From NCBI GenBank assembly GCA_035498835.1, contig DATJZU010000144.1, positions 654-64,653 on the forward strand: DNA of 64,000 bases, written 5' to 3'. This stretch comes from Thermoanaerobaculia bacterium (GTDB taxonomy: Bacteria > Acidobacteriota > Thermoanaerobaculia > UBA5066 > Gp7-AA6). This document shows, piece after piece, positions 24,685 through 54,068 of this stretch; within the stretch, counting starts at the first letter, position 1, and every line of letters starts with the position of its first letter. A program made the translations under genes and the position numbers. The notes under the pieces are model-generated. The model worked only from the letters and a program-made list of their open reading frames with translations, made no database searches and was not told the DNA's origin.

Positions 24685-25575
24685 ATGGCCCGGAGGCGAG
24701 CGGCGGCGGCCAAACGAGTCGCGCACTCATCGCGCGCCGCCGCCCCGCCTCGGCCGGTTTGGACCGGCCAGATCTCTTTCGGCCTGGTCACGATCCCGAT
24801 CGCGCTCTCGAGCGCCGTCGAAGCGTCGGAGCGAATCTCCTTCCACCTGCTCCACCGCAAGGATCTCGCGCCCATCCACTACAAGAAGTTCTGCAGTCTC
24901 GAGGACGTCGAGGTGAGCAACGACGAGGTCGTCCGCGGCCGACGGAGCGGCAAGACGAAGTGGACGGTCGTCGAAAAGGAAGATCTCGAGAAGGCGGCGG
25001 AGGAAGCGTCGCCGGCCGACAGCCGGAACACCATCGAGGTGCTCGAGTTCGTTTCGCCGAGTACGATCGACTTTCTCTCGCTCGACGAGCCCTACTACGT
25101 CGTGCCCCGAAAGGGAGGCGAGAAGGCCTACGTTCTCCTCCGGCGCGCGCTCACCGAGCGAAGCCGGACGGGAATCGTGCGCGTCACGCTGCGCACCCGG
25201 CCGCACCTGGCGGCGCTGTCACCCCGGGGCGAGGCCTTGACGCTCGTCACGCTACGGCCCTTCGAGGAGATGCGCGACGCCTCGCGCTGGGGCCTGCCGC
25301 CGCCGTCCGCGCGTCCCGCCGAGGTCGCGCTCGCCGAGCAGCTCGTGGACCGGCTCTCGGGCGGAGGCTGGGACCCGGCGCGGCATCCCGACACCTATCG
25401 GCGCGCGCTCCAGAAGCTGCTCGCCTCGAAGAGCGCCCGGGGCGCGCGGGGCGCGGCCCCCGAACCCTCCGGCGAAAACGTGGTCGACCTGATGGAAGCC
25501 CTCCGGCGGAGCGTGGCCGGCCGCGTGGGGCGACGCCCTCGAAACGCCGCTCCGCGCAAGGCCAGCACCGCCTGA
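24685..25575 (+). CDS. ku: Ku protein (NHEJ DNA-end binding)
   Basis: VWTGQISFGLVTIPIALSSA... Ku core with a basic C-terminal tail. It lies 14 nt after the PRC-barrel gene. No ligD is present in the window. Confidence 0.85.
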   Translation: MARRRAAAAKRVAHSSRAAAPPRPVWTGQISFGLVTIPIALSSAVEASERISFHLLHRKDLAPIHYKKFCSLEDVEVSNDEVVRGRRSGKTKWTVVEKEDLEKAAEEASPADSRNTIEVLEFVSPSTIDFLSLDEPYYVVPRKGGEKAYVLLRRALTERSRTGIVRVTLRTRPHLAALSPRGEALTLVTLRPFEEMRDASRWGLPPPSARPAEVALAEQLVDRLSGGGWDPARHPDTYRRALQKLLASKSARGARGAAPEPSGENVVDLMEALRRSVAGRVGRRPRNAAPRKASTA

Positions 25576-38824: not shown

Positions 38825-41800
38825 CTATTGCTCGAGCGGCTCGCCCAGCACGACGGCGATCCGGTGCTCGCGCCCGTCGTCGACAAGCGGGATCTCGCGC
38901 CCATCGACCGGCCCGCCGTCGAGCGAAATATGCGTGACGCCTCGCATGACTCCGCGAGGGTTCTCGACGGAGAGGCGGTATCGGGCCGAGTGGTAGCGGA
39001 AGAGGATCTCGTACCGCGGCCAGGCGCGGGGAATGCACGGATCCACGTGGAGCACCGCGCCGCGCAGGCGGAAGCCCAGGATCCACTCGACGCCCGCGCG
39101 ATACATCCAGCCGGCCGCGCCCGTGTACCAGGTCCAGCCGCCGCGCCCCGCATGCGGCCGCTCGGAATAGACGTCCCCGGCCATCACGTACGGCTCGACC
39201 TTGTAGCGATAGAGGCCGGATCGGGTGCTCGCGTGGTTGATGGGATTCAGGAGCGCGAAGAGCTCTCCGGCCTTGTCCCCATCCCCGAGCGCCGCGAACG
39301 CGATCATGGCCCACACGGCGGCGTGCGTGTACTGGCCGCCGTTCTCGCGCACCCCGGGGACGTATCCCTTGACGTAGCCCGGCTCGAGCTTCGTGCGGTC
39401 GAACGGAGGCGTGAGGAGCAGAACGAGCCCGTCGCCCCTCCGGATGAGATGCTCGTCCACGGCGGCCATGGCGCGGCGGCGCCGCTCGGGATCCGCCGCT
39501 CCGGAGATCACTCCCCACGATTGAGCGATCGAGTCGATGCGGCACTCGTCATTGGACGCCGACCCGAGAGGGGTCCCGTCGTCGAAGTAGGCGCGGCGAT
39601 ACCAGTCGCCGTCCCAGCCCTCGCGATCGAGCGTGTCCTTCAATGAGGCGGCGTGGGCGCGCCAGGTCCGGGCCCGCTCGTTTTCCCCGCGGCGCTCTGC
39701 AAGAGCGGCGAACTCGACCAGGTTGGTGTGCAGGAACCAGCCGAGCCACACGCTCTCGCCCCGGCCCTCGACGCCGACGCGATTCATCCCGTCGTTCCAG
39801 TCGCCGGTGCCCATCAACGGCAGGCCGTGGGAACCGACCGCGAGGCTGCGGTCCAGGGCGCGGGCGCAATGCTCGTAGAGCGACGCCACCTGTGGGGAGA
39901 TCTTGGGCTCGAAGTAGCGGTCGGTCTCCGCGGGCTCGAGCGGCGGGGCCTCGAGAAACGGCGCCGGTTCGTCGAGGACGCCGTAGTCGCCCGTGACCTC
40001 GACGTAGTGGTGCGCGGCGTAGGGAAGCCAGAGGAGGTCGTCCGAGATTCGGGTCCGCACGCCCTTCCCCTCGGGGTCATGCCACCAGTGCTGCACGTCT
40101 CCCTCTTGGAACTGCCGCGATGCGGCGCGCAGCAGATGCTCGCGCGCCAGCTCCCGCCGGGCGACCGTGAACGACATGGCGTCCTGAAGCTGGTCGCGGA
40201 AGCCCCAGGCGCCTCCCGCCTGATAGAACGCCGCGCGGGCCCGGTAACGGCACGCCACCACCTGGTACAGGAGCCAGCGATTCAGCATCAAGTCCATCGA
40301 GCGGTCCGGAGTGCGGACCTGGAGAGCGGAGAGGGTGTCCTCCCATTCACGACGAACCTGTGACAGCGCGGCGTCGAGGTCCTCCGTGCGGTAGCGCGTC
40401 ACGAGTCGCCTTGCCTCCGCCGTGTCGGAGCCCTGGCCGAGCAGGAAACGGATTTGCGCGCGCTGTCCGGCCTCCAGCCGCAACCGCACCTGGAGAACGG
40501 CGCAGGGATCCAGACGGGCCCCGGCGCTCCCGGACAACACGCGTTCGGGGGCGAGCCCCGCCGGAGCGTCGAGCCCCCCGTTGCGCCCCAGGAACTCCGT
40601 TCGGTCGGCCGTCCACGCCGTCTGCCGTCCTTCCGCGTCGGCGAACGCGACTCGGCCCGCGTACGGCTCATTCCAGAAGTTGCGCGCGAAAAGAGCCCCG
40701 GTCTCGTCGAGCTCGGTCACGAGGAACGGGGCCGCGGCACCGCGCTGCGCCCCGAGGACCCATTCCGTGTAGGCGGTCACCGTCAGTGTCCGCGCCTGAC
40801 CCGACCGGTTCTCGAGATCGAGGCGGGAGACCTTGACCGGATCCTCGCGCGGAACGAAGAAGAGCAGGTCCGTACCGATTCCGTGATGTTCGTGCTCGAA
40901 ACGGCTGTACCCCTGGCCGTGACGAACGAGGTACGAGCCTTCGTCCCGTATCGGCAGCGGCGTCGGGCACCAGATCTCTCCGGTCTCTTCGTCTCGAACG
41001 AAGAGGGCTTCCCCGCATGGATCGCCGACGGGGTCGTTGGACCAGGGTGTGAGCTGGTTCTGACGGCTGTTGCCCGACCACGTGTAGCCCGCTCCGGATT
41101 CCGACACGAGACAGCCGAAGGTCGAGTTGGCCAGGACATTGATCCAGGGAGCCGGAGTCCACTGCCGCTCTCCCAGGATCGTGACGTACTCGGAGCCGTC
41201 GCCGGAGAAGCCGCCCAGACCGTTGAAGAACTCCAGAGGAAGGCGGGGCGGCGGGACGTCCGCTGGCGGCGGCGGCGCGAGGATCGCCGCCGCGGCCGGC
41301 GGCGCCGGGGCGCTTCGCAGGAGACGCAGGACCTGCTCCGACAGGGTCCCATGGCGGGAGAGCAGGATGACCCGCGCGGCCACGGCGAGCGCGTCGCGCT
41401 CCTCGCCAGAGAGAAGCTCCCCGCGCAGGACGAACACGTCTCCCACCGGGCTCTCCGCCCCGGCGCCGGCCAGGCGGGCCCCCGCGCGGACCAGAGACTC
41501 CAAAGCGGAGCCGAGCTCGGGCGAGTAGGAGGTGGGCTGCTCGTTGATGATGACGAGATCCACGGCGAGGCCCTTCAGTTTCCAATACTCGTGGGCGCGC
41601 AGGAGCTGACGCACGATGCCCTGGTCCTCGACCTGATCGATCCGGACGAGCACGATCGGCCGTTCGCCCGAGATCCCATGTCTCCAGAGAACCGAAGGCC
41701 CCTTCCGGTTGCGCAGGATCGTCTCGGCGGAGGCGCGCAAAGTCGGGTCGGAGTACAGAACGCGGGTCGCGAGGCGCTGAAACAGATGCGCCTCGTCGCT

Positions 41801-44800
41801 GGTGACGCCGAGATGCCGCAACTGGACCTGGGCCTGGGTCCAGGAGAGGTTCGAGACGCGATCGAACGTGGCCGGATCCCGGTACTTGTCGGCCAGCTCG
41901 AGCGCACGCTCACGCGAATCGGCGACCATCAACGCGAGCTGAACGCGCGCCGTCGCCCCGGGGGCCAGGCGCACCCGCCGGCGAATGCTGAAGACCGGAT
42001 CCAGGACGGTTCCGACGGTATTCGAGAGCGGCCGTCGGTCCTCGATGGCGCTGGGATTTCGGATCGACCGCCCCCGGCCCAGAAATCGCCCGCGATCCGT
42101 CTCGTACTGCAGCACCTCCGACAACTCGCCCTGCGCCGTCATCACCTGCGCCGCCCAGATCGGCGCCTCGCGATCGCGAGGGCGGCGCCGGGCGAGCAAC
42201 GCCTCCGTCGCGGGGGAGAACTCGGTCTGGACGAAGAGGTTCGAGAACGCGGGATGGACGGCGTCGGCGTCGGGCGGCGCGAGCACGATCTCCGTGTACG
42301 ACGTGATCTCGATCTCTCGGGCGCGCGCCCCGAGATTGGTCAGGGAGATCCGCCGCATTTCGGCGTCGTCTTCCGTCGAGACGAGGACCTGAAGATTGGT
42401 CGCGATCGGCCCGTCGCGGCGATGAATCTCCACGCGATCTTCCGAATAGACGGCCTCGTAGGAGTCCGGTTCGACTCCCGCCGGCTGATACCCGGCCGAC
42501 CAGGTCTTTCCCGACTCCGCGTCGGTCAGGAAGACGTAGGTACCCCAGGGGTCACGCGTCGAGTCCTCGCGCCAGCGCGTGACGGCGAGCCCTCCCCAGC
42601 GGCTGTAGCCGGATCCGGCGGCCGTCATCATCACGCAGTAACGTCCGTTGGACAGCAGGTGAGTTCGCGGCGTCGGATCGTGGGGCGAACGAAAACGACG
42701 CAGGACCGGCGGGACGTCCTCCCGAACGTGAAGCTGCGCGGCCCCGTCTTCGGGCACCGGACGCGCCACCGCCACGGTGCGCGGCGTGCGCTCCTGAAGG
42801 AGAAGGTCGGTGGCCTGGACGCTCGGGTCGGCGCCGAAACGGCGGCGCATCGTCGATTCGAGCAGCAGGTTCGCGAGCGCCACGATCGTCATGCCCTGGT
42901 GGTGGGCCATGTAGGCCTTCACCACCGCGAAGGTCTCGCCCTCGGGCAGCCGCGAGGCGGTGTAATCGATCGATTCGTAGAAGCCGTATCGGCCGAGCGC
43001 GCCGATCGATGCGAGCCGCTCGAAGTTCGCGAGCGCGGCGACGGGCTCGACCATGGCGGCCAGCGCCGTCGCATACGGCGCCACGACCAGATCCTCCGAC
43101 AGGCCGCGCTTCAATCCCAGACCGCTGACGCCAAAGTTGGAGTACTGGTACGTGAAGTTCAAGTCCCACGCGTTGTAGGCGGCCTCGGAGATCCCCCACG
43201 GCACCCGTCGCTCCTCTCCGTACCGGATCTGCCGCCGCACCGCGAGCCGAACGGTCTGATCGAGCAGACTGCCCGACGGCGCCTCGAGCACGAGATCGGG
43301 CATCAGATACTCGAACATGGATCCGGACCAGGACATCAACGCGGACCCGCGGCCGACCGGAGTCAGCGGGCGACTCAGGTGGAACCAGTGATCGACCGGC
43401 GCGTCCCCGCGCGCGATCGCGACGAAGCTCGCCAGCCGCGCCTCCGACGCCAGGAGGTCATAGTGGCCCGGGTCGGCGGCGCGATCCGAGGCTCGGTACC
43501 CGATCGAAAAGAGCTCGCGGCGGCGATCCAGCAGAAACGAGAAGTCCATCTCCTCCGCAATTCGGCCGGCAGCGGCGGCGGCGGCGGCGAGACGCCGGGC
43601 GAAGGCGTCCGCCGGATCGTCCCGCCCCCGGATCGCTTCGTCGTCGCGCGCGTGGCTCGCCACGCTGTCCCGCAGAGCTTGCGCCCATTCGAGCGCGAGC
43701 GCGGTTTGCGGGCTTTCGTCTTCCTGTTGCAGCGCGAGGACGACGTCCACGAGCGTTTCGGTATGCCGGGACAGAGAGGCCAGCCGTTCCTCCCATTCGG
43801 AGAACGAGCCGGGCGCCCGCGCGAGCAACGCACGGGTCTCCTCGAGAGCGCTCTCGAGCTGGCGGGTCGTGACGACGCGGCCCGGGCTGCGCCGCGCGGC
43901 GACGATCGCGGCTTCGCGCAGGAGCTCCAGCGTGTCGCCGATCCCGTCGAGCGCGCTCTCCATGGGGATCGGCTCGTTCACGCGCTCGAGGCATGCCTGC
44001 CGAAGAGCGATCAGGTGCGCCGCGAGGTTGCCGCTGTCAACCGTCGAGACGTATCGGGGCTCGAGCGGCGCGAGATTCGCCGTGTCGTACCAGTTGTAGA
44101 AGTGTCCCCGGAAGCGATCCAGGCGTCCCAGAGTGGCGAGGGTCGCCTCGAGGCGCTGCAGCATCTCACCGGTTCCGATCCACCCCAGGTCGTTGGCCGC
44201 GACGGTCGAGAGAAGAGCGAGCCCGATGTTGGTCGGCGACGTCCGGCCGGCGATCTGCGGCTGCGGCAGTTCCTGAAAGTTGTCCGCCGGAAGACCGTGC
44301 GTCTCGGGTCCGACGAACCGCTCGAAAAAGTGCCAGGTGCGGCGTGCGATCCGGCGGAACTCGCCCGCTTGAGCGGCAGAGATCCGCGCGCTCGGCGACT
44401 CGCGCGGCGGCACACTGACCCAGCGGGCGACCAGAGGCGACAGAAGCCAGAACGCCACGAAGGGCGCGGCCCACCACCTCCCGGCGTCGGCTCCAAAGCC
44501 CGCCACCAGGAGGCCCGCGGCGGCCCCCAGCCCGACCGCCGAGCGCATGCGGCGATAGAAACCGGAGATCTCCAGATCCAGAGAGCGATGCGCCTGTGCC
44601 GCCGGCACCCACTCCAGCCGATGCCGCCGCGACACGGCCATACGCCAGAGAGTGCGCGCGATCGCATCGGATCGGAGCCAGGCCGTGTGCGCCAGAAAAA
44701 CCAGACGCGCAGCCGCTTGCGCCAGCCCGATGGCGAGGTCCGAGACGACGCCCCGCACGAAGCTGCGCTTGGCGACGCCCGGGTGTTCGGGGAGAAGACC

Positions 44801-47356
44801 CGTGAAGAACGACAGCAGCGTGGGGAAAACGAACACGAAGAGGATGAAGAGCGTCCCGAGGCGAGCGCCGGCTCCCGGCAGGCACCACGCGGTGAGCAGC
44901 GTCGCAAAGGTCGCCGGCGGCGCGAGGCTCCGCCGGAGGTTGTCGAGCATCTTCCAGCGACCCATGAGAGGAATCGCGCTTCGCGTACGGCTGGCGCGGG
45001 GGCCGTTCCCGACGATCCAGGGCAACAACTGCCAGTCACCTCGCACCCAGCGGTGCTGGCGCGAGGCGGCCACCTCGTAATGGCCCGGGAAGCCTTCGAA
45101 GAGCTCGATGTCCGAAACAAATCCGGCTCGGGCGAACAGCCCTTCGAAGAGATCGTGGGAGAGTTGCGTATTGTCCGGCACCCGGTCGCCGAGCGCGCGC
45201 TCGAACGCGTCCACGTCGTAGATGCCCTTGCCGGTGTAGATCGCCTCGCCGAAGAGGTCCTGGTACACATCCGAGACAGCGAAGGCGTAGGGATCGATGC
45301 CGCGAGGGCCCGAGAAGATGAGCTGGAAGAGCGTGCCGAAGCCGGTTTCGGGCAACGTGGGAGCGACGCGCGGCTGGAGAATCGCATGCCCCTCGACGAC
45401 TCGTTCCGCCGCCGCGTCGAAGATGGGCACGTTCAGCGGGTGGGCGATCGTTCCAATCAGCCCGCGTGCGGCCTCCCGCGGCAGCCGCGTGTCCGCGTCC
45501 AGCGTGATGACGTACCGGATGCCGGCGGGCGGCGGCGCGCCGCCTTCCACCGACAGAAAGGACGTGTCCGTCGCGCCGCGCAGGAGACGGTTGAGCTCGC
45601 GAAGCTTCCCGCGCTTCCTTTCCCATCCCATCCAGACCCCTTCGCCCTCGTTCCAGAGGCGGCGCCGATGGAAGACCCAGAAGCGGTCGCCTCCCCCGGC
45701 CGCAGGCCCGTGCCGGTCGTTGAGCTCCCTTACCGCGGCGCGCGCCGCCGCGACGAGTGCGTCGTCCTCGGGCAGGCTCTCCGAAGGCGCGTCGGACCAG
45801 TCCGACAGGAGCGCGAACCGGAGCTCGGGATCCGGATTGGCGAGGTAGTGCACCTCCAACCGCTGCACCACCTCGCGAATCTCGGTGTCATCGGTCAGGA
45901 GCATGGGAATCACGATCAGTGCGCGCGCCTGTTCCGGCACGCCGGCGGCGAGCTCGAGCTTGGGCAGTCGCCGCGGCCCGATGAGCGCCGTCACGAACCG
46001 CTGCACGAGACCGGTCGCCAGGTCCGAGGCCGGTACCAACGCGAGGACGGCGAGCAGGCCCAGAGAGGCGCGGGAAGCGCCGGCCACATCGGCGAGCGCC
46101 AGAGGAACGGCGAGGATCGCGGCGGTTCCGAGGGCGATCGTGCCCAGGTAGCCGGGAGTCGCGGCAGCGAACCACGCGCGCCGCAGCCATTGCCGGACCG
46201 GGACGTGGAACTCGAGCTCGACCTCGAGCCGCGCGCGCCCCCGGGAGATCAGGTAGTAGCCGGGGTCGGCAAGACGCGGATCGGGAGCGGCCTCCGAATC
46301 CCCCGGCGAGGTCTCGGCGCTCCGAGCCATGGCGACGGCACGGCGCGCCACCTCGAGCTCGTCATGGACGCTCCCGCGTGACAGATCCTCGACCGCGTGC
46401 CGATAGCGATCGCGTGTCGCGAAGTCCATCTCGGCGACGCGCGTGCCCGCGGAGAGCGCTTCGTGAACGAGGCTCACGCTCTCGAAGAACTCCGCCCAGT
46501 CGGCCGAAGAAAGGAGCCGCATGCTCGTGATGACGTTGCGTACCGTCGCGTGGCTGGCGACCTGTGCCTGGTGCTCGAGATGGACGGCCTCTTCGGCCGT
46601 GGTCCCATCGCGGGCGAATCGGCGATCGAGCCAGGCGAGCGCCGGAGTGACCGCGGGATCCTGTTCGCGGAGTCTCCGGGCGAGCTGGACCGCGAAGGCC
46701 GAGGTGAACGGCAGTTGCTCCAGCATCTGAATCACGGCCGCCGGACCCGGGCTCGGGATGCCGCCGGTCGAGAGCTGCGTGTCGGCGATCGCGTCGGCCT
46801 GTTCCCGCGCGATGCCCCGCGCGGCGACGCGCTCGGCCAGGCGACGAAGATTCTCGACCAGAACCACGCGCAGCGAGATCGCCAACGCCCACAGCTCGCC
46901 GATCGTGAGAGGCTGCACGGCCTGGTAGGCGCGGACGAAGCGGCGCAGCGTGTCGAGATCGATTCGACTGTCCGTGTGCGAGACGAACGACCAGGCCAGC
47001 CCGTAGACGCGCGGGTAGCCTTCGAGCGGTCCGGAAGCGAGCTTGGGCAGCTCCCGGTAGAACCCGGGTGGCAGGTCCTGCTGGATCTCCCGGATCTGCT
47101 CCTCGACGATGTGGGAGTTGTTGAGCAGCCACTCCGCCGCCGGAGAGATGGCACGGGTCCTTCGGCTGGCCTCCGCGATCGCCCGCTGAGCCTGCAGAAG
47201 CACCCGCGAGTTCTCGCGCAGCCGCGGCAGCAACGGACGGCCGCGCCTTTGTCGGAGGTGGACGGGCTGTTCGGCGGCGAGCTTCGCGGCGAACTGCTCC
47301 AGATGATCCGCCGAAAAGAGCTCGGCGCGAATGGGGTCGCCGTCCGCGCGCATCAT
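38825..47356 (-). CDS. Cyclic beta-1,2-glucan synthase (NdvB/ChvB/Cgs-like; GT84 glycosyltransferase + GH94 phosphorylase-like domains)
   Basis: 2843-aa single ORF with uniformly high GC3. The N-terminal membrane/GT domain carries the D,D,D...QxxRW-like motifs ([26 protein letters not shown]). C-terminal GH94/GT36 domains are present (…[12 protein letters not shown]…, …[10 protein letters not shown]…). The size and architecture are those of NdvB. The 1975-aa plus-strand ORF antisense to it is an artefact. Confidence 0.85.
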
Positions 47357-47562: not shown

Positions 47563-48107
47563 TCACCCACCGGAGACCGCCTGAACTGCCGCGAGCAGGG
47601 TCGCCAGCCCGAAGGAGCTCTCGTGCCGGACGTTGTTGATGAAGAAGGCCGGCGCCACGGCGACACCGCTTCGGACGCCTCCCCGTCGGATGCCCCGGAT
47701 CTTCTCGGAGTGGACGTGGGCGAGCATCTCGCGGCGGAACCGAATCAGGTCCAGGCCGACCTGCGCCGCATGCCGTTGGAGCCGGACCCGGTCCCTCGGA
47801 GTCTCGCCTTCGAACAGGGATCGTGCATCTCCCAGAACCTGCCCTGCGAGGACGCGCACTCCGCGGCCTGGGCTGCCTCCTCGGAATGCCGGAATTGCTC
47901 GGGCTGCGGAAAGCTGCGGTAGACGTAGCGCAGACGCGTGCCCATCTTCTTCTGGATCTTCTTGACGGTGCCGTACGCCTGCGCGCACGCCGGCGAAGCG
48001 AAGTCGCCGTAAGCAACCAGCGTCGTGCTTGCGAGGGGCGAGCCGCGAACGTGGTCCTTCGCCGAAACTTTCCGCGCGAGTCTTTGTCCCGGTCGCTTCG
48101 CGTTCAC
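47563..48107 (-). pseudogene. DsbA-like thioredoxin-fold protein with SPAC (SxxC) motif, disrupted by a single-base frameshift in a C-run
   Basis: Frame A (GTG 48107, SD GGAAGGTGA) gives ...GSPLASTTLVAYGDFASPACAQAY...ECASSQGRFWEMHD. A different frame continues the same family C-terminus ...LFEGETPRDRVRLQRHAAQVGLDLIRFRREML...GVAVAPAFFINN... The switch occurs at plus-strand GGG 47817..47819. Total length is 545 nt (3n-1). Confidence 0.5.
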
Positions 48108-48342
48108 CGTTTCACCTTCCGGCCCGGCATGCGATCTCGAAATGATGTTCCGACATTCCGAGCGATCGATCGTGCACCGCCGGGCCCTCATCATGGCCGT
48201 CGGGTCGGCGCCGGGTCCAATCGTTTGTTTCGATCGAGTTCAGACTCGCGAGCGCTGGAGTCAGAACGCGTGTCGAGCCGTTCGCGGTGCATGCGACCAC
48301 TCCGGGCCGCCCCGTCGCCCGCGGTGGCTCGGACGCAAGCGC

Positions 48343-49890: not shown

Positions 49891-50280
49891 TCACTGGGGC
49901 TCTTCCCGCAGAAACTGCTGTCGAGCTCTCGCCGCAATCTGGGGATCGGTCATCTTGTCGGCCGTCACGACCGCAACGATGCGGCCGGCGAGCCCTTCTT
50001 CGCCAAGCCGCTTTTCGAGCTGGTGCTTTGCTTCGCCCGGTCCGAGGATGAGGATCGCTTCGGCATCGCGGAGGCGGGAGATGACGGCGTCGAAGTACTT
50101 GCGCAGGTGCTCTGCATATCGTCTCTCGTATTGATCCTCCGCGCCATGCTCCTTCCTTATCGAGAACCGCGTGTGCTTCTCGACGTTCGACTCGAGCCGG
50201 CTCGTCACCTCGCCTTCACCGGTGAGCGTCGCGAACACGGCCTCTCGATGGTCGATCCATACCGTCACGTCCCGTCTCAT
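49891..50280 (-). CDS. Hypothetical cytoplasmic protein
   Basis: 129 aa from the ATG with SD CCAGGAGG: MRRDVTVWIDHREAVFATLTGEGEVTSRLES...ILGPGEAKHQLEKRL...VTADKMTDPQI... No confident family assignment. Confidence 0.5.
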   Translation of the reverse strand: MRRDVTVWIDHREAVFATLTGEGEVTSRLESNVEKHTRFSIRKEHGAEDQYERRYAEHLRKYFDAVISRLRDAEAILILGPGEAKHQLEKRLGEEGLAGRIVAVVTADKMTDPQIAARARQQFLREEPQ

Positions 50281-50596
50281 CGAATCCTCCTGGCCCGGCA
50301 CCGGCCCCGCACGAAAGCAGCGTGCGCGCCCGAACGGCGATCTGCGAATCTCACGAAACCCGTTTCTCGGGCGGCCGTGCCGCCTTGTTCTCGTGGTCTC
50401 TGCGCATCGTCCCAGAGCCTAGCACCCGGTTCACACAGAGCGGACGGGGCATCGGCCGCGTGAGCATCGTGAATGACCGGCGCAGTCTCAGGCGCGATGC
50501 CGGCGCTTCGGCTCTGAGCCGCGGCGATCGGGAGTCGATCGTCCCGGCCGAAAGAAGCGAATGCGCGGGAGTATTCTGACGACAAATGGAGGTCGC

Positions 50597-50959
50597 ATGA
50601 CGACTCGACGCGCGTTGATCCTCGCCGTCCTGGCTTCGCTCTCGACCGCGCTCGCCCCGGCAGCCGCCGAGAAGACCGGCGTGCTCGAGGTGACCTACTA
50701 CTACCTGCCCGGCTGACCGATCTGCGCAAAGATCAAGCCCGCCGTGAGCGGGCTCGGGGAGGAGTACAAGGGGAAAGCCCGGGGCGAGAACCTCGACGCC
50801 ACGACGCCCGAGAACCGGAAGGTCGTGAAGTCGCTCGGCTTCGACAATCACGGTCTCGTCATCCGATCGGCGGATGGCAAGGTCCTCTGGAAGGAGCCCG
50901 ACCACGAGGTGAAGATGGAGGACGTGCGCCGGGAGCTCGACAAGCTGCTCGGTAAGTAG
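50597..50959 (+). CDS. Exported thioredoxin-fold protein with in-frame TGA (candidate selenocysteine) in a UxxC redox motif
   Basis: SD GGAGG 5 nt before ATG 50597. Signal peptide MTTRRALILAVLASLSTALAPAAA. The translation then reads EKTGVLEVTYYYLPG-[TGA 50714..50716]-PICAKIKPAVSGLGEEYKGKARGENLDATTPENRKVVKSLGFDNHGLVIRSADGKVLWKEPDHEVKMEDVRRELDKLLGK. High GC3 is maintained on both sides of the TGA in the same frame. The TGA sits exactly where thioredoxins have the first Cys of CGPC (…U-P-I-C-A-K-I-x-P). Confidence 0.55.
50736..50754 (+). promoter_or_regulatory. Stem-loop AGCCCGC-CGUGA-GCGGGCU 20 nt downstream of the in-frame UGA; candidate bacterial SECIS element
   Basis: 7-bp GC stem with a 5-nt apical loop containing GU, spanning +20 to +38 from the UGA. 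This matches the expected position of a bacterial SECIS. Seen directly; function inferred. Confidence 0.4.
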
Positions 50960-50994: not shown

Positions 50995-52656
50995 TCAGGT
51001 CAGAGCCAGATACTCGTGCGCGAGGCGCACGACCATGGAGCCTTCTCCGACGGCGGAGGCCACGCGGTTCATCGCTCCCGCGCGCACGTCGCCCGCAGCG
51101 AACACCCCCGCCACGCTCGTCTCGAGGGGAAACGGCTCCCGCTGTTCTTTCCAGGTTTTCGGATAGGCCTCGGCCGCCATCAGATCGCGGCCCGTGAGAA
51201 CGAAGCCTTTCGCGTCGCGCAGGACGCCGGCCGGCAGCCAGTCGCTTCGCGGCCGCGTCCCGATGAAAACGAAAACGGCGTCGGCTTCTTCGGTTCGACA
51301 CGAGCCGTCGTCGAGCGAACGCAGAGTCACCCGTTCCACGTGACCGGCGCCTTCGACGCCGGCGATCTCCGTCCGGGCGCGCAGATGGATGTTCCAGGTC
51401 TTCTCGATCTGCTCGATCAGGTACTGCGACATCGTCTCCTGCAGGCCTTCGCGGCGCACGACGATCTGCACATCCTCCGCATACCGCGCCAGGTGCATGG
51501 CTCCCTGGCCGGCGGAGTTGCCGCCGCCCACGACGAAGACTCGCCGGCCGCGGAACGCCGGCGCTTCTGTGGTCGCGGCGCCGTAATAGACGCCGGCGCC
51601 CGCGTGCTCCGCGACTCCGGGAGCCGGATGCTCCCGGTAGAACATGCCCGTGGCGGCCAGCATGGCTCGCGTGACGAGCTCGCGGCCGTCCGACAGCGCG
51701 AGACGCTTGTATCCGCCGCCGATCGAGACGCCCGTCACCTCGAGCGGCGCGAGGAACTCGGCGCCGAGGCGCTGCGCCTGCATGATGGCGCGGCGCGTCA
51801 GCTCGCTGCCGCTGACACCGGCGGGGAACCCGAGGTAGTTTTCGATGCGGGAGCTCGTCCCCGCCTGTCCGCCCGGGGAGTGGCGGTCGAGCAGGATCGT
51901 CCGCAGGCCTTCGGAGGCGCCGTACACCGCCGCCGCGAGCCCGGCGGGACCCGCCCCGACGACCACGAGGTCATAGACCTCGAAGGCGGCCGACAGCGGC
52001 CGGCCGAGACGTTCGGCCACCTGGCGCGGCTCCGGGTTCGTCAGGACGCTCCCGTCCTCGAAGAAGAGGGCCGGGAGCGCGTCGGTGCCGATGCCCGCGG
52101 CCTCGAGAAGCGTCCGCGCGTCCGCCTCGCGCTCGACGTCCAGCCAGCGGTACGGAACGAGGTTGCTCGCGAGAAAGTCCTTGATCTCGTGGGATCGCGT
52201 GGCCCACTGATGCCCGATCAGCCGCAGGCCGCACGCTTCCGGCAGCGACTCCGCCTGCCAGGCGTCGAGCAGGTCGTCGACGACCGGATAGAGCCGTTCC
52301 TCGGGCGGATCCCAGGGCTTCGAGAGGTAATGATCGAGGTGCGCTTCGTTGATCGCGCGGATCGCCGCTTCGATGTCCGAATATGCCGTCAGCAGGACAC
52401 GCCGCGCGAGAGGGTACAGCTCGCGGGAGCGGGCGAGCACTTCCCCGCCGAGCATCCCGGGCATGCGCTGGTCGCTGATCACCATCGCCAGCGAATCGCC
52501 GCGGCTCTTCAGATCGCGCGCCGTCTCGAGCGCCTCCGATCCCGAGCCGGCGCTCACGACCATGTACTGGTCCCTGTACCGGGAGCGGAGGTCTCGCCGC
52601 ACCGCCGCGAGGACCTGCGGATCGTCATCCACGACGAGGAGAACGGGTTTGCTCAC
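50995..52656 (-). CDS. Response-regulator receiver domain fused to a thioredoxin-disulfide reductase-like FAD/NAD(P) oxidoreductase
   Basis: GTG 52656 overlaps the upstream kinase stop (GTGA). REC domain: VLLVVDDDPQV...ISDQRMPGM...YLSKP. The C-terminal 320 aa are TrxB-like (DLVVVGAGPAGLAAAVY, FVVGGGNSAGQ, GVFAAGDV). The redox-active CxxC of TrxB is not obvious at the usual place. Confidence 0.75.
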   Translation of the reverse strand: MSKPVLLVVDDDPQVLAAVRRDLRSRYRDQYMVVSAGSGSEALETARDLKSRGDSLAMVISDQRMPGMLGGEVLARSRELYPLARRVLLTAYSDIEAAIRAINEAHLDHYLSKPWDPPEERLYPVVDDLLDAWQAESLPEACGLRLIGHQWATRSHEIKDFLASNLVPYRWLDVEREADARTLLEAAGIGTDALPALFFEDGSVLTNPEPRQVAERLGRPLSAAFEVYDLVVVGAGPAGLAAAVYGASEGLRTILLDRHSPGGQAGTSSRIENYLGFPAGVSGSELTRRAIMQAQRLGAEFLAPLEVTGVSIGGGYKRLALSDGRELVTRAMLAATGMFYREHPAPGVAEHAGAGVYYGAATTEAPAFRGRRVFVVGGGNSAGQGAMHLARYAEDVQIVVRREGLQETMSQYLIEQIEKTWNIHLRARTEIAGVEGAGHVERVTLRSLDDGSCRTEEADAVFVFIGTRPRSDWLPAGVLRDAKGFVLTGRDLMAAEAYPKTWKEQREPFPLETSVAGVFAAGDVRAGAMNRVASAVGEGSMVVRLAHEYLALT

Positions 52657-54068
52657 GCCCGGCCTTCGGCGCCCTCGATCTCGGCAAGCGGCAGCGTGAC
52701 CTGAAACTCCGTCCGGCCCGGCCGCGACTCGACCGCGATCTCCCCCTCGTTGTGCTGGACGAGCCGGCGGACGATGTCGAGGCCCAGGCCCGTCCCCTGC
52801 CCGGCGGCCTTCGTCGTGAAAAAGGGATCGAAGATCCGGTCGCGGATCTCGGCCGGGATGCCGGGGCCGTTGTCGGCGATCCGCACGACGACGCGCCGGG
52901 ACTCCCGACCGGCCTCGACCTCGACGCGACCCGATTCGGGGACGGCGTCGAGCGCGTTGTCGATCAGGTTGCCCCAGATCTGGTTCAGCTCGCCCACGAA
53001 CCCGCGGACGCGAGGCAAGCCAGGGTCGACTTTCACGGACACGGCGACCGACTTCCCGCGCGCCTTCGACTTGAGAACCGCGACCGTGTTCGCGAGGCTC
53101 TTGGCGAGATCCACCGGCTCGGCGACGGTTGCCTGGTCCATGTGCGTGAAACCCTTGACCGCCAGGACCAGCCCCGCGATCCGGGTCGCGGCCTCCTGGA
53201 TCTCCGAGGCGAGCCGGCGGAGAGAACAGCCCGCGGCGGCCCAGCGCAACGCGGCATTGAGCGCGGGCCCCTGGACGGCGCCGGAGAGCCGATCGAGCGC
53301 TTCGGTCGTCACGGCGGTTTCGGCCAGGGCTTCGGCGGCGGCCGTATCGAGGCCGCGGCCGGCGAGCCAGCCGGTGATGGCCTCTTCGCGTTCGGCGTGC
53401 TCGATCGGCGACCGGACCCCCTGCTCGGGCGCGGCGGCGCACGCGTTGCGCACGCCGTCGATGGCGTCGAACTGCGAGACGGTGAGACCCGCCGTGGCGA
53501 GAGCGCGCGCCGCCTGCTCGGCGTCCTCGAGCCGGTTCGCGAAAAGCGCCGCGCTTCGTTCGATCGCGGACGCGGGGTTGTTCAGCTCGTGGGCGAGCCC
53601 CGCCGAGAGACGCCCGAGCGAGATCATCTTCTCGTCGTGCAGCTCGTTCGACGTGAATTCCCGCGCTCGATCGATCATCCGATGGACGAGGATCGACGTG
53701 AGCTCGTGGCACTCTCTGGCGAGGGCGTTCATGTGCTCGCGGGGCACGACGAGGACCTCCGAGGGCTCCTGGACGAGCGACCGGCCCGGCGCCGCGACGA
53801 GGCGGGAGTACGGAAGCAAGCCCGTCACGTCGCCATCCCGCCACTCCGCCAGCTTGTGAGGGCCCGAGCCGCGATCGATGAAGATGGCGATCCGGCCCGA
53901 GAGAACGACGAACAGACCTTCCACCGGCGCGCCCCGCGTCGAGAGCGTGTCGCCCACCTCCAGGCGCCGGAGGGTCCCGTGCGCCGCCAGCCACTCGAGC
54001 TCCTGGCGAGGCGCGGCTCCGATCGTCTTGTGGTTCGCGAGCCGATCGACGAGCTCGGTCGACGTCAT
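52653..54068 (-). CDS. Histidine kinase with N-terminal cyclic-nucleotide-binding (cNMP/CAP-effector) domain
   Basis: cNMP-binding beta-roll (LEVGDTLSTRGAPVEGLFVVLSGRIAIF...GDVTGLL), then H-box LSAGLAHELNNPASAI, N box WGNLIDNALDA and G boxes (DNGPGIP, GTGLGLDIV). Cytoplasmic, with no TM segment. Confidence 0.8.
   Translation of the reverse strand: MTSTELVDRLANHKTIGAAPRQELEWLAAHGTLRRLEVGDTLSTRGAPVEGLFVVLSGRIAIFIDRGSGPHKLAEWRDGDVTGLLPYSRLVAAPGRSLVQEPSEVLVVPREHMNALARECHELTSILVHRMIDRAREFTSNELHDEKMISLGRLSAGLAHELNNPASAIERSAALFANRLEDAEQAARALATAGLTVSQFDAIDGVRNACAAAPEQGVRSPIEHAEREEAITGWLAGRGLDTAAAEALAETAVTTEALDRLSGAVQGPALNAALRWAAAGCSLRRLASEIQEAATRIAGLVLAVKGFTHMDQATVAEPVDLAKSLANTVAVLKSKARGKSVAVSVKVDPGLPRVRGFVGELNQIWGNLIDNALDAVPESGRVEVEAGRESRRVVVRIADNGPGIPAEIRDRIFDPFFTTKAAGQGTGLGLDIVRRLVQHNEGEIAVESRPGRTEFQVTLPLAEIEGAEGRA

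What the first reader, a model, noticed from the sequence alone, without database searches (positions are those of the whole stretch)
50597..50959. Candidate selenoprotein: exported thioredoxin-fold protein with UGA at the first position of a UxxC redox motif, plus a SECIS-like hairpin
A 121-codon frame has a strong SD and a canonical signal peptide. Very high GC3 is maintained on both sides of a single in-frame TGA (50714..50716). That TGA falls precisely where thioredoxin-family proteins carry the nucleophilic Cys (…YYYLPG-U-PIC-AKIKP… compared with …WCGPCK…P…). A 7-bp GC stem with a GU-containing loop begins 20 nt downstream, at the position expected for a bacterial SECIS. A simple pseudogene would not be expected to place its only stop exactly on the catalytic residue. 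If real, this is an exported Sec-containing thiol oxidoreductase, an uncommon class in bacteria.
Basis: partly seen in the sequence, partly recalled or inferred. Interest (0 to 1): 0.8.

Follow-up and report, generated by a model that had tools for sequence, protein, structure and literature searches.

The report
Exported thioredoxin-fold selenoprotein gene, misannotated
The in-frame TGA is very probably a real selenocysteine codon in a small exported thioredoxin-like protein; this protein family is widespread in soil Acidobacteriota, and public databases record it only as a truncated 71-residue "hypothetical protein".

Summary

The hairpin at 50736-50754 has a 7-bp stem and a CGUGA loop that starts 26 nt after the UGA. 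It meets every criterion of the published bacterial SECIS model. Its codons are frozen at synonymous sites. When Sec-containing relatives from other lineages are added, 5 of its 7 pairs show compensatory changes. TGA is the usual stop codon in neighbouring genes, so this is local recoding and not a changed genetic code.

Not shown: selA/selB/selC/selD in this genome (only about 74 kb could be read), actual selenium incorporation, and the substrate.

The protein matches no curated Pfam or NCBIfam family, including the listed selenoprotein families. I file it as a new member of a known kind: UxxC thioredoxin-fold selenoproteins.

The parts
50588..50592 (+). Shine-Dalgarno sequence GGAGG, 4 nt upstream of the ATG
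   Evidence: Read directly from the sequence.
50597..50959 (+). Complete selenoprotein CDS: 120 residues including U40, then TAG stop. Product: MTTRRALILAVLASLSTALAPAAAEKTGVLEVTYYYLPGUPICAKIKPAVSGLGEEYKGKARGENLDATTPENRKVVKSLGFDNHGLVIRSADGKVLWKEPDHEVKMEDVRRELDKLLGK
   Evidence: The frame is conserved on both sides of the TGA in 53 species. Full-length Cys homologs exist.
50597..50668 (+). Predicted signal peptide (residues 1-24, cleavage after A-A-A) with a T-R-R-x-L-I twin-arginine-like n-region
   Evidence: Inferred from the sequence. [STN]-R-R-x-hydrophobic-hydrophobic is present in 35 of 53 Sec forms. Some homologs have lipoprotein boxes instead. The Tat-signal HMMs gave no hit.
50714..50716 (+). 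Sec-encoding UGA (residue 40)
   Evidence: Invariant TGA in 53 of 53 GTDB loci and 23 metagenome loci. It aligns with the first Cys of CxxC in distant homologs and with Cys32 of WCGPC in thioredoxins.
50714..50725 (+). U-P-I-C redox motif (selenenylsulfide/selenol-thiol centre) at the N-terminus of helix 1
   Evidence: AlphaFold model of homolog P0003: the equivalent residue 45 immediately precedes helix 46-56. C43 is invariant.
50736..50754 (+). SECIS hairpin: 5' arm 50736-50742, loop CGUGA 50743-50747, 3' arm 50748-50754. 26 nt lie between the UGA and the loop.
   Evidence: It meets the bSECIS model of PMC13188914.
50849..50854 (+). His85-Gly86, where thioredoxins have Ile-cisPro before strand 3. 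Gly86 is the only invariant residue across the whole family.
   Evidence: Alignment A4. Register taken from the profile-to-thioredoxin alignment. The cis-Pro equivalence itself is my inference.
50744..50959 (+). The 71-aa GTG-start fragment that databases annotate in place of the real gene
   Evidence: Most listed database hits are this fragment: 101 of the 120 listed are 71 aa.

Best explanation
50597-50959 encodes a 120-residue pre-protein. UGA-40 is decoded as selenocysteine by the standard bacterial route. SelB·GTP·Sec-tRNA(Sec) binds the hairpin at 50736-50754, whose CGUGA loop presents G-U, while the ribosome holds the UGA 26 nt upstream in its A site.

The product is exported. It has a signal peptide, possibly of the Tat type, with cleavage predicted after residue 24. 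The mature protein is about 96 residues with a minimal thioredoxin fold (beta-alpha-beta-alpha-beta-beta-alpha) and sits in the cell envelope. Its U40-P-I-C43 centre cycles between the selenol/thiol state and the selenenylsulfide state to exchange redox equivalents with envelope substrates. Sec is the attacking nucleophile and Cys43 the resolving residue.

Shown here: conservation of the UGA, Sec/Cys homology, the fold, and SECIS geometry with synonymous-site constraint and covariation.

Inferred: SelB dependence, export and cleavage site, redox chemistry. The direction is unknown. I lean towards a reductive or protective role, because Sec is typically kept in nucleophilic, over-oxidation-resistant sites.
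For: 1. The UGA is conserved with a coding frame on both sides in 53 of 53 species-level loci. It is also conserved in 23 loci from other lineages with GC 39-60%.
2. Distant full-length homologs have Cys at that column: GCAVC, GCAYC, GCSDC and others. Some gene callers wrote W there (P0232, P0152, P0176, P0213). For P0213 this is shown to be an in-frame TGA: L073 encodes the same protein with TGA at that codon.
3. The family profile hits thioredoxins in the PDB at E 1e-7 to 1e-5, with CxxC aligned to WCGPC.
5. Codons +8 to +12 (P-A-V-S-G), which form the hairpin, have codon entropy of 0-0.24 bits. Every other conserved 4- or 6-fold degenerate site in the gene has 0.55-1.77 bits. Rare GGG (Gly) and AGC (Ser) are fixed there.
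6. The hairpin pairs in 98% of cells within the Acidobacteriota set.
7. With the wider set, 5 of 7 pairs show changes on both sides. The covariation score is 0.533, against 0.258±0.023 in shuffles (0 of 500 reach it) and at most 0.11 in slid controls. The loop CGUG(A/C) is nearly invariant.
8. All four bSECIS model criteria are met: 5-nt loop, 7-bp stem, G at loop position 2 followed by U, 26-nt spacing, -12.8 kcal/mol.
9. A Cys-form gene from the same class (L059) has no such hairpin. Cys forms vary in that peptide segment.
10. TGA ends 10 of 13 neighbouring genes, so it is not reassigned genome-wide.
Against: - No tRNA-Sec, selA, selB or selD was found in the window, in 10 kb beyond its start, or in the homologous flanks. 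The sample is about 1.6% of a genome for this organism, so the absence says little, but the machinery remains unshown.
- No Rfam family matched at gathering threshold.
- The z-score of the single-sequence 71-nt fold is unremarkable, -0.95.
- No conserved operon partner points to a substrate.
- The metagenome loci used for covariation were retrieved with a peptide pattern that overlaps the 3' arm. This constrains some hairpin columns. It does not constrain the Gly third position or the upstream codon that covary with each other, nor the AAT/CAT choice.
Confidence: 0.88

Rival explanations
1. The UGA is recoded, but to cysteine or another residue and not to selenocysteine. One route would be a SelB-dependent non-canonical tRNA-Cys(UCA), as described by Vargas-Rodriguez et al. 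2018, a paper cited in PMC13582414. Another would be near-cognate read-through stimulated by the hairpin.
For: The Sec machinery was not found in the sequence available. Recoding of Sec-UGA in the presence of a SECIS by other means is mentioned in the literature. The data here prove recoding and a SECIS-like signal. They do not prove the identity of the inserted residue.
Against: The hairpin fits the SelB-type SECIS consensus closely. If Cys were inserted, a plain UGC codon would do the job without a constrained hairpin, as it does in the Cys-form homologs. Acidobacteriota are documented Sec users.
Confidence: 0.06
2. Pseudogene or assembly error: the TGA is a nonsense mutation or a miscalled base in a former Cys codon.
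For: Taken alone, one in-frame stop in one assembly is what a pseudogene looks like. One short metagenome contig (L063) has TCA (Ser) at this codon, and L003 has a 1-nt indel downstream. So damaged or erroneous copies do exist.
Against: The identical TGA is present in 53 of 53 species plus 23 loci of other lineages, from short-read and long-read assemblies. There is purifying selection on both sides of it, and RNA-level selection just downstream.
Confidence: 0.01
3. Two independent small genes: a 39-residue peptide ending at the TGA, and a separate 71-residue protein starting at GTG 50744, as the databases annotate.
For: Gene callers produce exactly this split.
Against: The 27 nt between the two 'genes' encode the invariant P-I-C-A-K-I-K-P-A in frame. 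Cys homologs are single continuous proteins. The 71-residue piece would lack strand 1, the redox motif and most of helix 1 of the fold. It would also lack a signal peptide. No SD sequence precedes GTG 50744.
Confidence: 0.01

Closest known systems
Thioredoxin-type UxxC selenoproteins (selenoprotein Trx, PF00085; Grx, PF00462), as listed in PMC13188914
   Same: Thioredoxin fold. Sec is the first residue of a UxxC motif at the N-cap of helix 1. The SECIS lies inside the coding region just downstream. Cys-containing homologs exist.
   Different: It scores below the Pfam thresholds (Thioredoxin 14.5 bits against 23.5; Glutaredoxin 15.1 against 22.9). It is exported and not cytoplasmic. The dipeptide is P-I and not G-P. 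An invariant His-Gly replaces the Ile-cisPro loop.
Exported thiol:disulfide oxidoreductase selenoproteins (thiol:disulfide interchange protein PF13098, DsbA-like PF01323, DsbG-like NF041057; PMC13188914)
   Same: Envelope location inferred from a signal peptide. UxxC centre on a thioredoxin fold. Presumed thiol-disulfide or selenenylsulfide exchange.
   Different: No match to those models. It is a minimal domain of about 96 residues, without the helical insert of DsbA or the extensions of TlpA/DsbE/ResA. Its taxonomic home is Acidobacteriota and not Desulfobacterota.
Curated small thioredoxin-like selenoprotein families in NCBIfam: SaoT (NF040730), HUIPC-motif (NF047660), VPGUxxT (NF041383), GOS_C (NF045500), DF family (NF049942)
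   Same: Small Trx-like (seleno)proteins with Sec in or next to a CxxC-type motif.
   Different: The window protein hits none of them at E<=1. Its low-GC relatives reach only 16-22 bits, against cut-offs of 65-70 bits, for SaoT and the DF family.
Bacterial SECIS consensus (bSECISearch model; E. coli fdhF and Moorella SelB-SECIS paradigm)
   Same: Coding-region hairpin with a small apical loop, G then U at loop positions 2-3, and 16-37 nt spacing from the UGA.
   Different: The loop sequence is a specific, nearly invariant CGUG(A/C). It is shared, together with its encoded peptide P-(A/I)-V-(S/N/H)-G-L, by several otherwise divergent exported Trx-like selenoprotein groups. No Rfam model matched it at gathering threshold.

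Membership tests
Bacterial selenoprotein (UGA recoded through SECIS and SelB) | In-frame UGA conserved among orthologs, with coding conservation on both sides | tested here: met
   53 of 53 GTDB loci and 23 metagenome loci.
Bacterial selenoprotein (UGA recoded through SECIS and SelB) | Homologs with Cys aligned to the UGA | tested here: met
   CxxC forms P0122, P0123, P0124, P0126, P0230 and others.
Bacterial selenoprotein (UGA recoded through SECIS and SelB) | bSECIS: loop of 3-9 nt, upper stem of 4-16 bp, G in the first two loop positions, 16-37 nt from the UGA, MFE <= -7.5 kcal/mol (PMC13188914) | tested here: met
   Loop CGUGA, 7 bp, 26 nt, -12.8 kcal/mol. Synonymous-site constraint. Covariation.
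Bacterial selenoprotein (UGA recoded through SECIS and SelB) | selA, selB, selC (tRNA-Sec) and selD in the same genome | not testable with these tools
   None found in the 64-kb window, in 10 kb upstream (L064) or in 0.9 Mb of homologous flanks. The rest of the genome cannot be reached.
Bacterial selenoprotein (UGA recoded through SECIS and SelB) | Selenium actually incorporated at the UGA position | not testable with these tools
   Needs 75Se labelling or mass spectrometry.
Thioredoxin superfamily (fold level) | beta-alpha-beta-alpha-beta-beta-alpha fold with the redox motif at the N-terminus of helix 1 | tested here: met
Thioredoxin family proper (Pfam PF00085 / TIGR01068) | Score above the curated threshold | tested here: not met
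   14.5 bits against a cut-off of 23.5. NCBIfam TrxA 18.3 against 140.
Thioredoxin family proper (Pfam PF00085 / TIGR01068) | Conserved cis-proline loop before strand 3 | tested here: not met
   The position is occupied by His85-Gly86. Gly is invariant in the family. The register is inferred from the profile alignment.
Curated selenoprotein families of NCBIfam release 20 (SaoT, HUIPC, VPGUxxT, GOS_C, DF and others) | Match to the family HMM at its cut-off | tested here: not met
   No such hit at E<=1. Relatives are far below the cut-offs.
Tat-exported proteins | Twin-arginine signal peptide (S/T-R-R-x-F-L-K type) | tested here: inconclusive
   T-R-R-A-L-I in the window. A similar motif is present in 35 of 53 Sec forms. 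There is no hit to the Tat-signal HMMs, and several homologs are lipoproteins.

The most novel reading that the evidence does not exclude
The gene defines an uncatalogued family of small envelope selenoproteins that appears Sec-only in every Thermoanaerobaculia/Polarisedimenticolia locus retrieved. Its active-site neighbour is an invariant His-Gly and not the thioredoxin cis-Pro, and export may go through Tat. Its SECIS (NNCCNN-CGUGA-NNGGNN, with the encoded peptide P-x-V-x-G-L at a fixed +8 to +13 codon register) is shared by at least four otherwise divergent exported Trx-like selenoprotein groups, including UxxU forms. That would make it an ancient or mobile 'helix-1 plus SECIS' module. The His next to U-x-x-C could also mean metal or metalloid handling and not plain disulfide exchange.
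Probability: 0.25. Interest if true: 0.6.

Novelty: new member of a known kind. Interest (0 to 1): 0.5.

Why it matters
- It implies that an abundant, almost uncultured soil and sediment class, Thermoanaerobaculia, decodes selenocysteine and places selenium chemistry in its cell envelope.
- It corrects a systematic annotation error. The two protein searches returned 528 and 643 database clusters, and nearly all listed hits are truncated 71-82-residue "hypothetical proteins" or a spurious Trp read for the TGA.
- It provides a sharply defined SECIS signature (UGA, 26 nt, then a CGUGA loop on a 6-7-bp stem) that can be used to find more selenoproteins in these lineages.
- It does not overturn anything known about Sec decoding or thioredoxin chemistry.

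Tried and rejected
- Rfam at gathering threshold found nothing in the window.
- ARAGORN found no tRNA-Sec in the window or in 55 loci. Its 87-nt 'tRNA-Arg' at 24802-24888 has no Rfam tRNA match, so I treat it as a false positive.
- A conserved operon partner was sought and not found. The convergent response-regulator/TrxR-like gene and the cNMP-binding histidine kinase are linked in only 12 close relatives. Other members sit next to unrelated genes. Naive ORF clustering was swamped by shadow frames in this 70%-GC DNA.
- Scans for other in-frame TGAs flanked by coding signal, in the window and in the flanks, found no second selenoprotein candidate.
- Tat-signal HMMs gave no hit.
- The afdb50 structure library was unavailable.
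- No DNA is held for P0232. The Sir2-like ORF was not on record.
- Literature searches found nothing on selenocysteine in Thermoanaerobaculia. No supplements were held for the two most relevant papers.

Full report
**1. What is in the sequence**

The + strand ORF 50597-50959 begins at an ATG that lies 4 nt after GGAGG. It has 120 sense positions and ends at TAG. It holds exactly one in-frame TGA, at 50714-50716. The translation is MTTRRALILAVLASLSTALAPAAAEKTGVLEVTYYYLPG*PICAKIKPAVSGL...LLGK.

The mechanical ORF list splits it into a 51-aa piece that ends at the TGA and a 71-aa GTG-start piece at 50744-50959. GC3 is 0.80 before the TGA and 0.90 after it.

On its own it folds at -12.8 kcal/mol. 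Within a 71-nt context the fold is not unusual (z = -0.95), so one sequence alone proves nothing.

**2. Comparative evidence for recoding**

- A protein search with U replaced by C returned 528 clusters. Among the 120 listed, 101 are the 71-aa fragment. The named ones are 'hypothetical protein [Thermoanaerobaculia bacterium]'. Gene callers therefore restart after a stop in all of these genomes.
- A scan of one genome per GTDB species gave 55 loci, all from Acidobacteriota MAGs: Thermoanaerobaculia, Polarisedimenticolia or unclassified.
- I translated upstream of each match in the same frame. A TGA sits at the identical codon in every one of the 53 loci that reach that far. A signal peptide and L-x-V-T-Y-Y-Y-L-P-G precede it, and P-I-C-A-K-I-K-P-A-V-S-G-L follows it.
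- L003 carries the same TGA and hairpin, plus one extra G downstream.
- The C-terminal domains are 49-96% identical to the window's, so these are not near-clonal copies.
- TGA terminates 10 of 13 neighbouring genes in a contig that is 99.93% identical to window 40744-60959. The genetic code is therefore standard, and the read-through must be local.

**3. Sec/Cys pair and fold**

- An exhaustive HMMER search against 1.84 billion representatives found 109 relatives. Among them are full-length proteins of about 120-135 aa at 24-45% identity.
- In their alignment the UGA column holds Cys in a CxxC motif in most of them: GCAVC, GCAYC, GCSEC, ECSIC, HCMAC and others.
- It holds W in a few. P0213 is the product of L073, where that codon is TGA. 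Relatives of P0152 and P0176 (L065-L072) also have TGA there.
- A subset has lost both cysteines.
- A profile of this alignment matches thioredoxins in the PDB at E 1e-7 to 1e-5, with CxxC on WCGPC. Individual members reach Pfam Thioredoxin or Glutaredoxin only weakly.
- An AlphaFold2 model of the 60%-identical full-length homolog P0003 has pLDDT 82 and pTM 0.69. Its topology is beta-alpha-beta-alpha-beta-beta-alpha, and the residue equivalent to U40 immediately precedes helix 1.
- A His-Gly pair (H85-G86) occupies the place of thioredoxin's Ile-cisPro. G86 is the only invariant residue of the family. The register is my inference from the profile alignment.

**4. The hairpin is a SECIS**

The published bacterial model has four requirements (PMC13188914): a loop of 3-9 nt, a stem of 4-16 bp, G in the first two loop positions (usually G then G or U), and 16-37 nt between the UGA and the loop, with MFE <= -7.5 kcal/mol. 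This hairpin has a 5-nt loop C-G-U-G-A, 7 bp, 26 nt of spacing and -12.8 kcal/mol, so it meets all four.

Within the 53 Acidobacteriota sequences the stem is 98% paired, but it varies too little for compensatory changes. The informative signal there is at synonymous sites. Codons +8 to +12 (Pro-Ala-Val-Ser-Gly) have codon entropies of 0.14, 0, 0, 0.24 and 0 bits. Every other conserved 4- or 6-fold degenerate position in the gene has 0.55-1.77 bits. The fixed codons include GGG and AGC, whereas other invariant Gly positions use all four codons with GGC most common.

I then retrieved Sec-form relatives from metagenomes of other lineages (GC 39-60%), using the low-GC 'W' clade as the query. All have TGA at the same column. 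All have a hairpin in exactly the same register, with the loop CGUG(A/C) but different stems: GACCAU/AUGGUC, GGCCAU/AUGGCC, ACCCAU/AUGGGU, GGUCAU/AUGACC, against GCCCGC/GCGGGC here.

On the combined 36-sequence alignment:
- 5 of 7 pairs change on both sides, in 41 cells;
- 92% of cells pair;
- the covariation score is 0.533, against 0.258±0.023 for shuffles (0 of 500 reach it) and at most 0.11 for slid partners.

One caveat applies. The retrieval pattern [IM]V[NHR][GD][LM].. fixes part of the 3' arm. It does not fix the third base of the Gly codon, the first base of the codon two positions upstream that pairs with it, or the universal AAT/CAT choice.

A Cys-form gene from Thermoanaerobaculia (L059) has no hairpin there, and Cys forms vary in that peptide segment.

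**5. What could not be shown**

- No tRNA-Sec was found.
- The window maps to a 1.23-Mb contig. The 10 kb beyond its start hold no sel genes either.
- The sequence read is too small a fraction of these genomes for the absence to count.
- Acidobacteriota do include documented Sec users. I found no paper dealing with Thermoanaerobaculia.
- The identity of the inserted residue, export, the cleavage site and the substrate are all inferences.
- The N-terminus carries T-R-R-x-L-L in 35 of 53 Sec forms, which looks Tat-like. The Tat HMMs do not match, and some homologs are lipoproteins.

**6. Context**

The gene appears to stand alone.
- Upstream and divergent (49891-50280, -) is a 129-aa protein with only a weak eRF1-domain-2 similarity.
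- Downstream and convergent are a response-regulator/TrxR-like fusion (50995-52563) and a cNMP-binding histidine kinase (52653-54068).
- That pairing holds in only 12 close relatives. Other members have unrelated neighbours.
- Some genomes carry two copies: L008 and L024 are on one contig, and L040 and L041 are in one MAG.

**7. Comparison with known families, and novelty**

UxxC thioredoxin-fold selenoproteins are established, including exported ones such as the thiol:disulfide interchange, DsbA-like and DsbG-like selenoproteins. This protein works like them.

It is not a member of any curated family that I could test. It gave no Pfam hit above threshold and no NCBIfam hit, including the selenoprotein models SaoT, HUIPC, VPGUxxT, GOS_C and DF. 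Every database name for it is 'hypothetical protein'.

I therefore class it as a new member of a known kind. Two features set it apart from canonical thioredoxins: the His-Gly in place of cis-Pro, and the SECIS/peptide module shared with several other exported Trx-like selenoprotein groups, including UxxU forms.

**8. Verdict**

- Interest is moderate.

Noticed in passing
window 47563-48194 (-): A DsbA-like (Pfam Thioredoxin_4) gene is split by a frameshift near 47820 (...RFWEMHD | SLFEGE...). The same break is present in two independent assemblies of the same species (L056, L058). Relatives L001 and L006 are intact. The usual CxxC is S-P-A-C here (S-P-E-C and N-P-D-C in the relatives), so only one Cys is left.
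   Followed up: partly
window 49891-50280 (-): A 129-aa protein with no Pfam family is transcribed divergently from the selenoprotein gene. Its only weak hit is eRF1 domain 2 (E 0.02, 15.6 bits against a cut-off of 27.1). A release-factor-like fold next to a UGA-recoding gene is curious, but the pairing recurs only in L001.
   Followed up: partly
window 50995-52563 (-) and 52653-54068 (-): A response-regulator receiver domain fused to a thioredoxin-reductase-like flavoprotein (Pyr_redox_2), followed by a cNMP-binding histidine kinase. Both are convergent with the selenoprotein gene. The linkage is conserved in 12 close relatives only.
   Followed up: partly
window 24802-24888 (-): ARAGORN calls an 87-nt 'tRNA-Arg(GCG)' with the anticodon at position 31. 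Rfam finds no tRNA there even at E<=1. This is probably a false positive.
   Followed up: yes
L079:210-269, L082:582-641, L083:268-327: Related exported Trx-like genes carry two in-frame TGAs three codons apart (U-Q-P-U or U-P-P-U), followed by the same CGUGA hairpin in the same register. One SECIS apparently serves two Sec codons.
   Followed up: partly
L080, L081, L084-L092 (metagenome loci): At least three further, more canonical thioredoxin-like groups (W-U-P-T-C, Y-U-A-A-C membrane-anchored, I-U-S-T-C) are only 27-35% identical to the query family. They share the identical SECIS loop, register and encoded peptide P-I-V-(N/H)-G-L.
   Followed up: partly
L063:317-694 (protein P0003): The only full-length near homolog in the protein database has TCA (Ser) where all the others have TGA, yet it keeps the SECIS hairpin intact. 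This is either a recent Sec-to-Ser change or an assembly error on a 792-nt contig.
   Followed up: partly
L008 and L024 (same contig CAWERV010000018.1, about 23 kb apart); L040 and L041 (same MAG): Some genomes carry two Sec-containing paralogs of this gene.
   Followed up: no
proteins P0232, P0152, P0176, P0213: Public gene calls write Trp at the Sec column. L073 encodes P0213 with an in-frame TGA at that codon, and relatives of P0152 and P0176 (L065-L072) have TGA there too. The callers therefore appear to have used a TGA=Trp code on these contigs. That hides the selenoprotein and may misassign the genetic code of those contigs.
   Followed up: partly
window 38825-47356 (-): A very large ORF (2,843 aa in the ORF list) with Glycoamylase and GH94 domains, of the cyclic beta-1,2-glucan synthase/phosphorylase type, occupies 8.5 kb just upstream of the region.
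   Followed up: no
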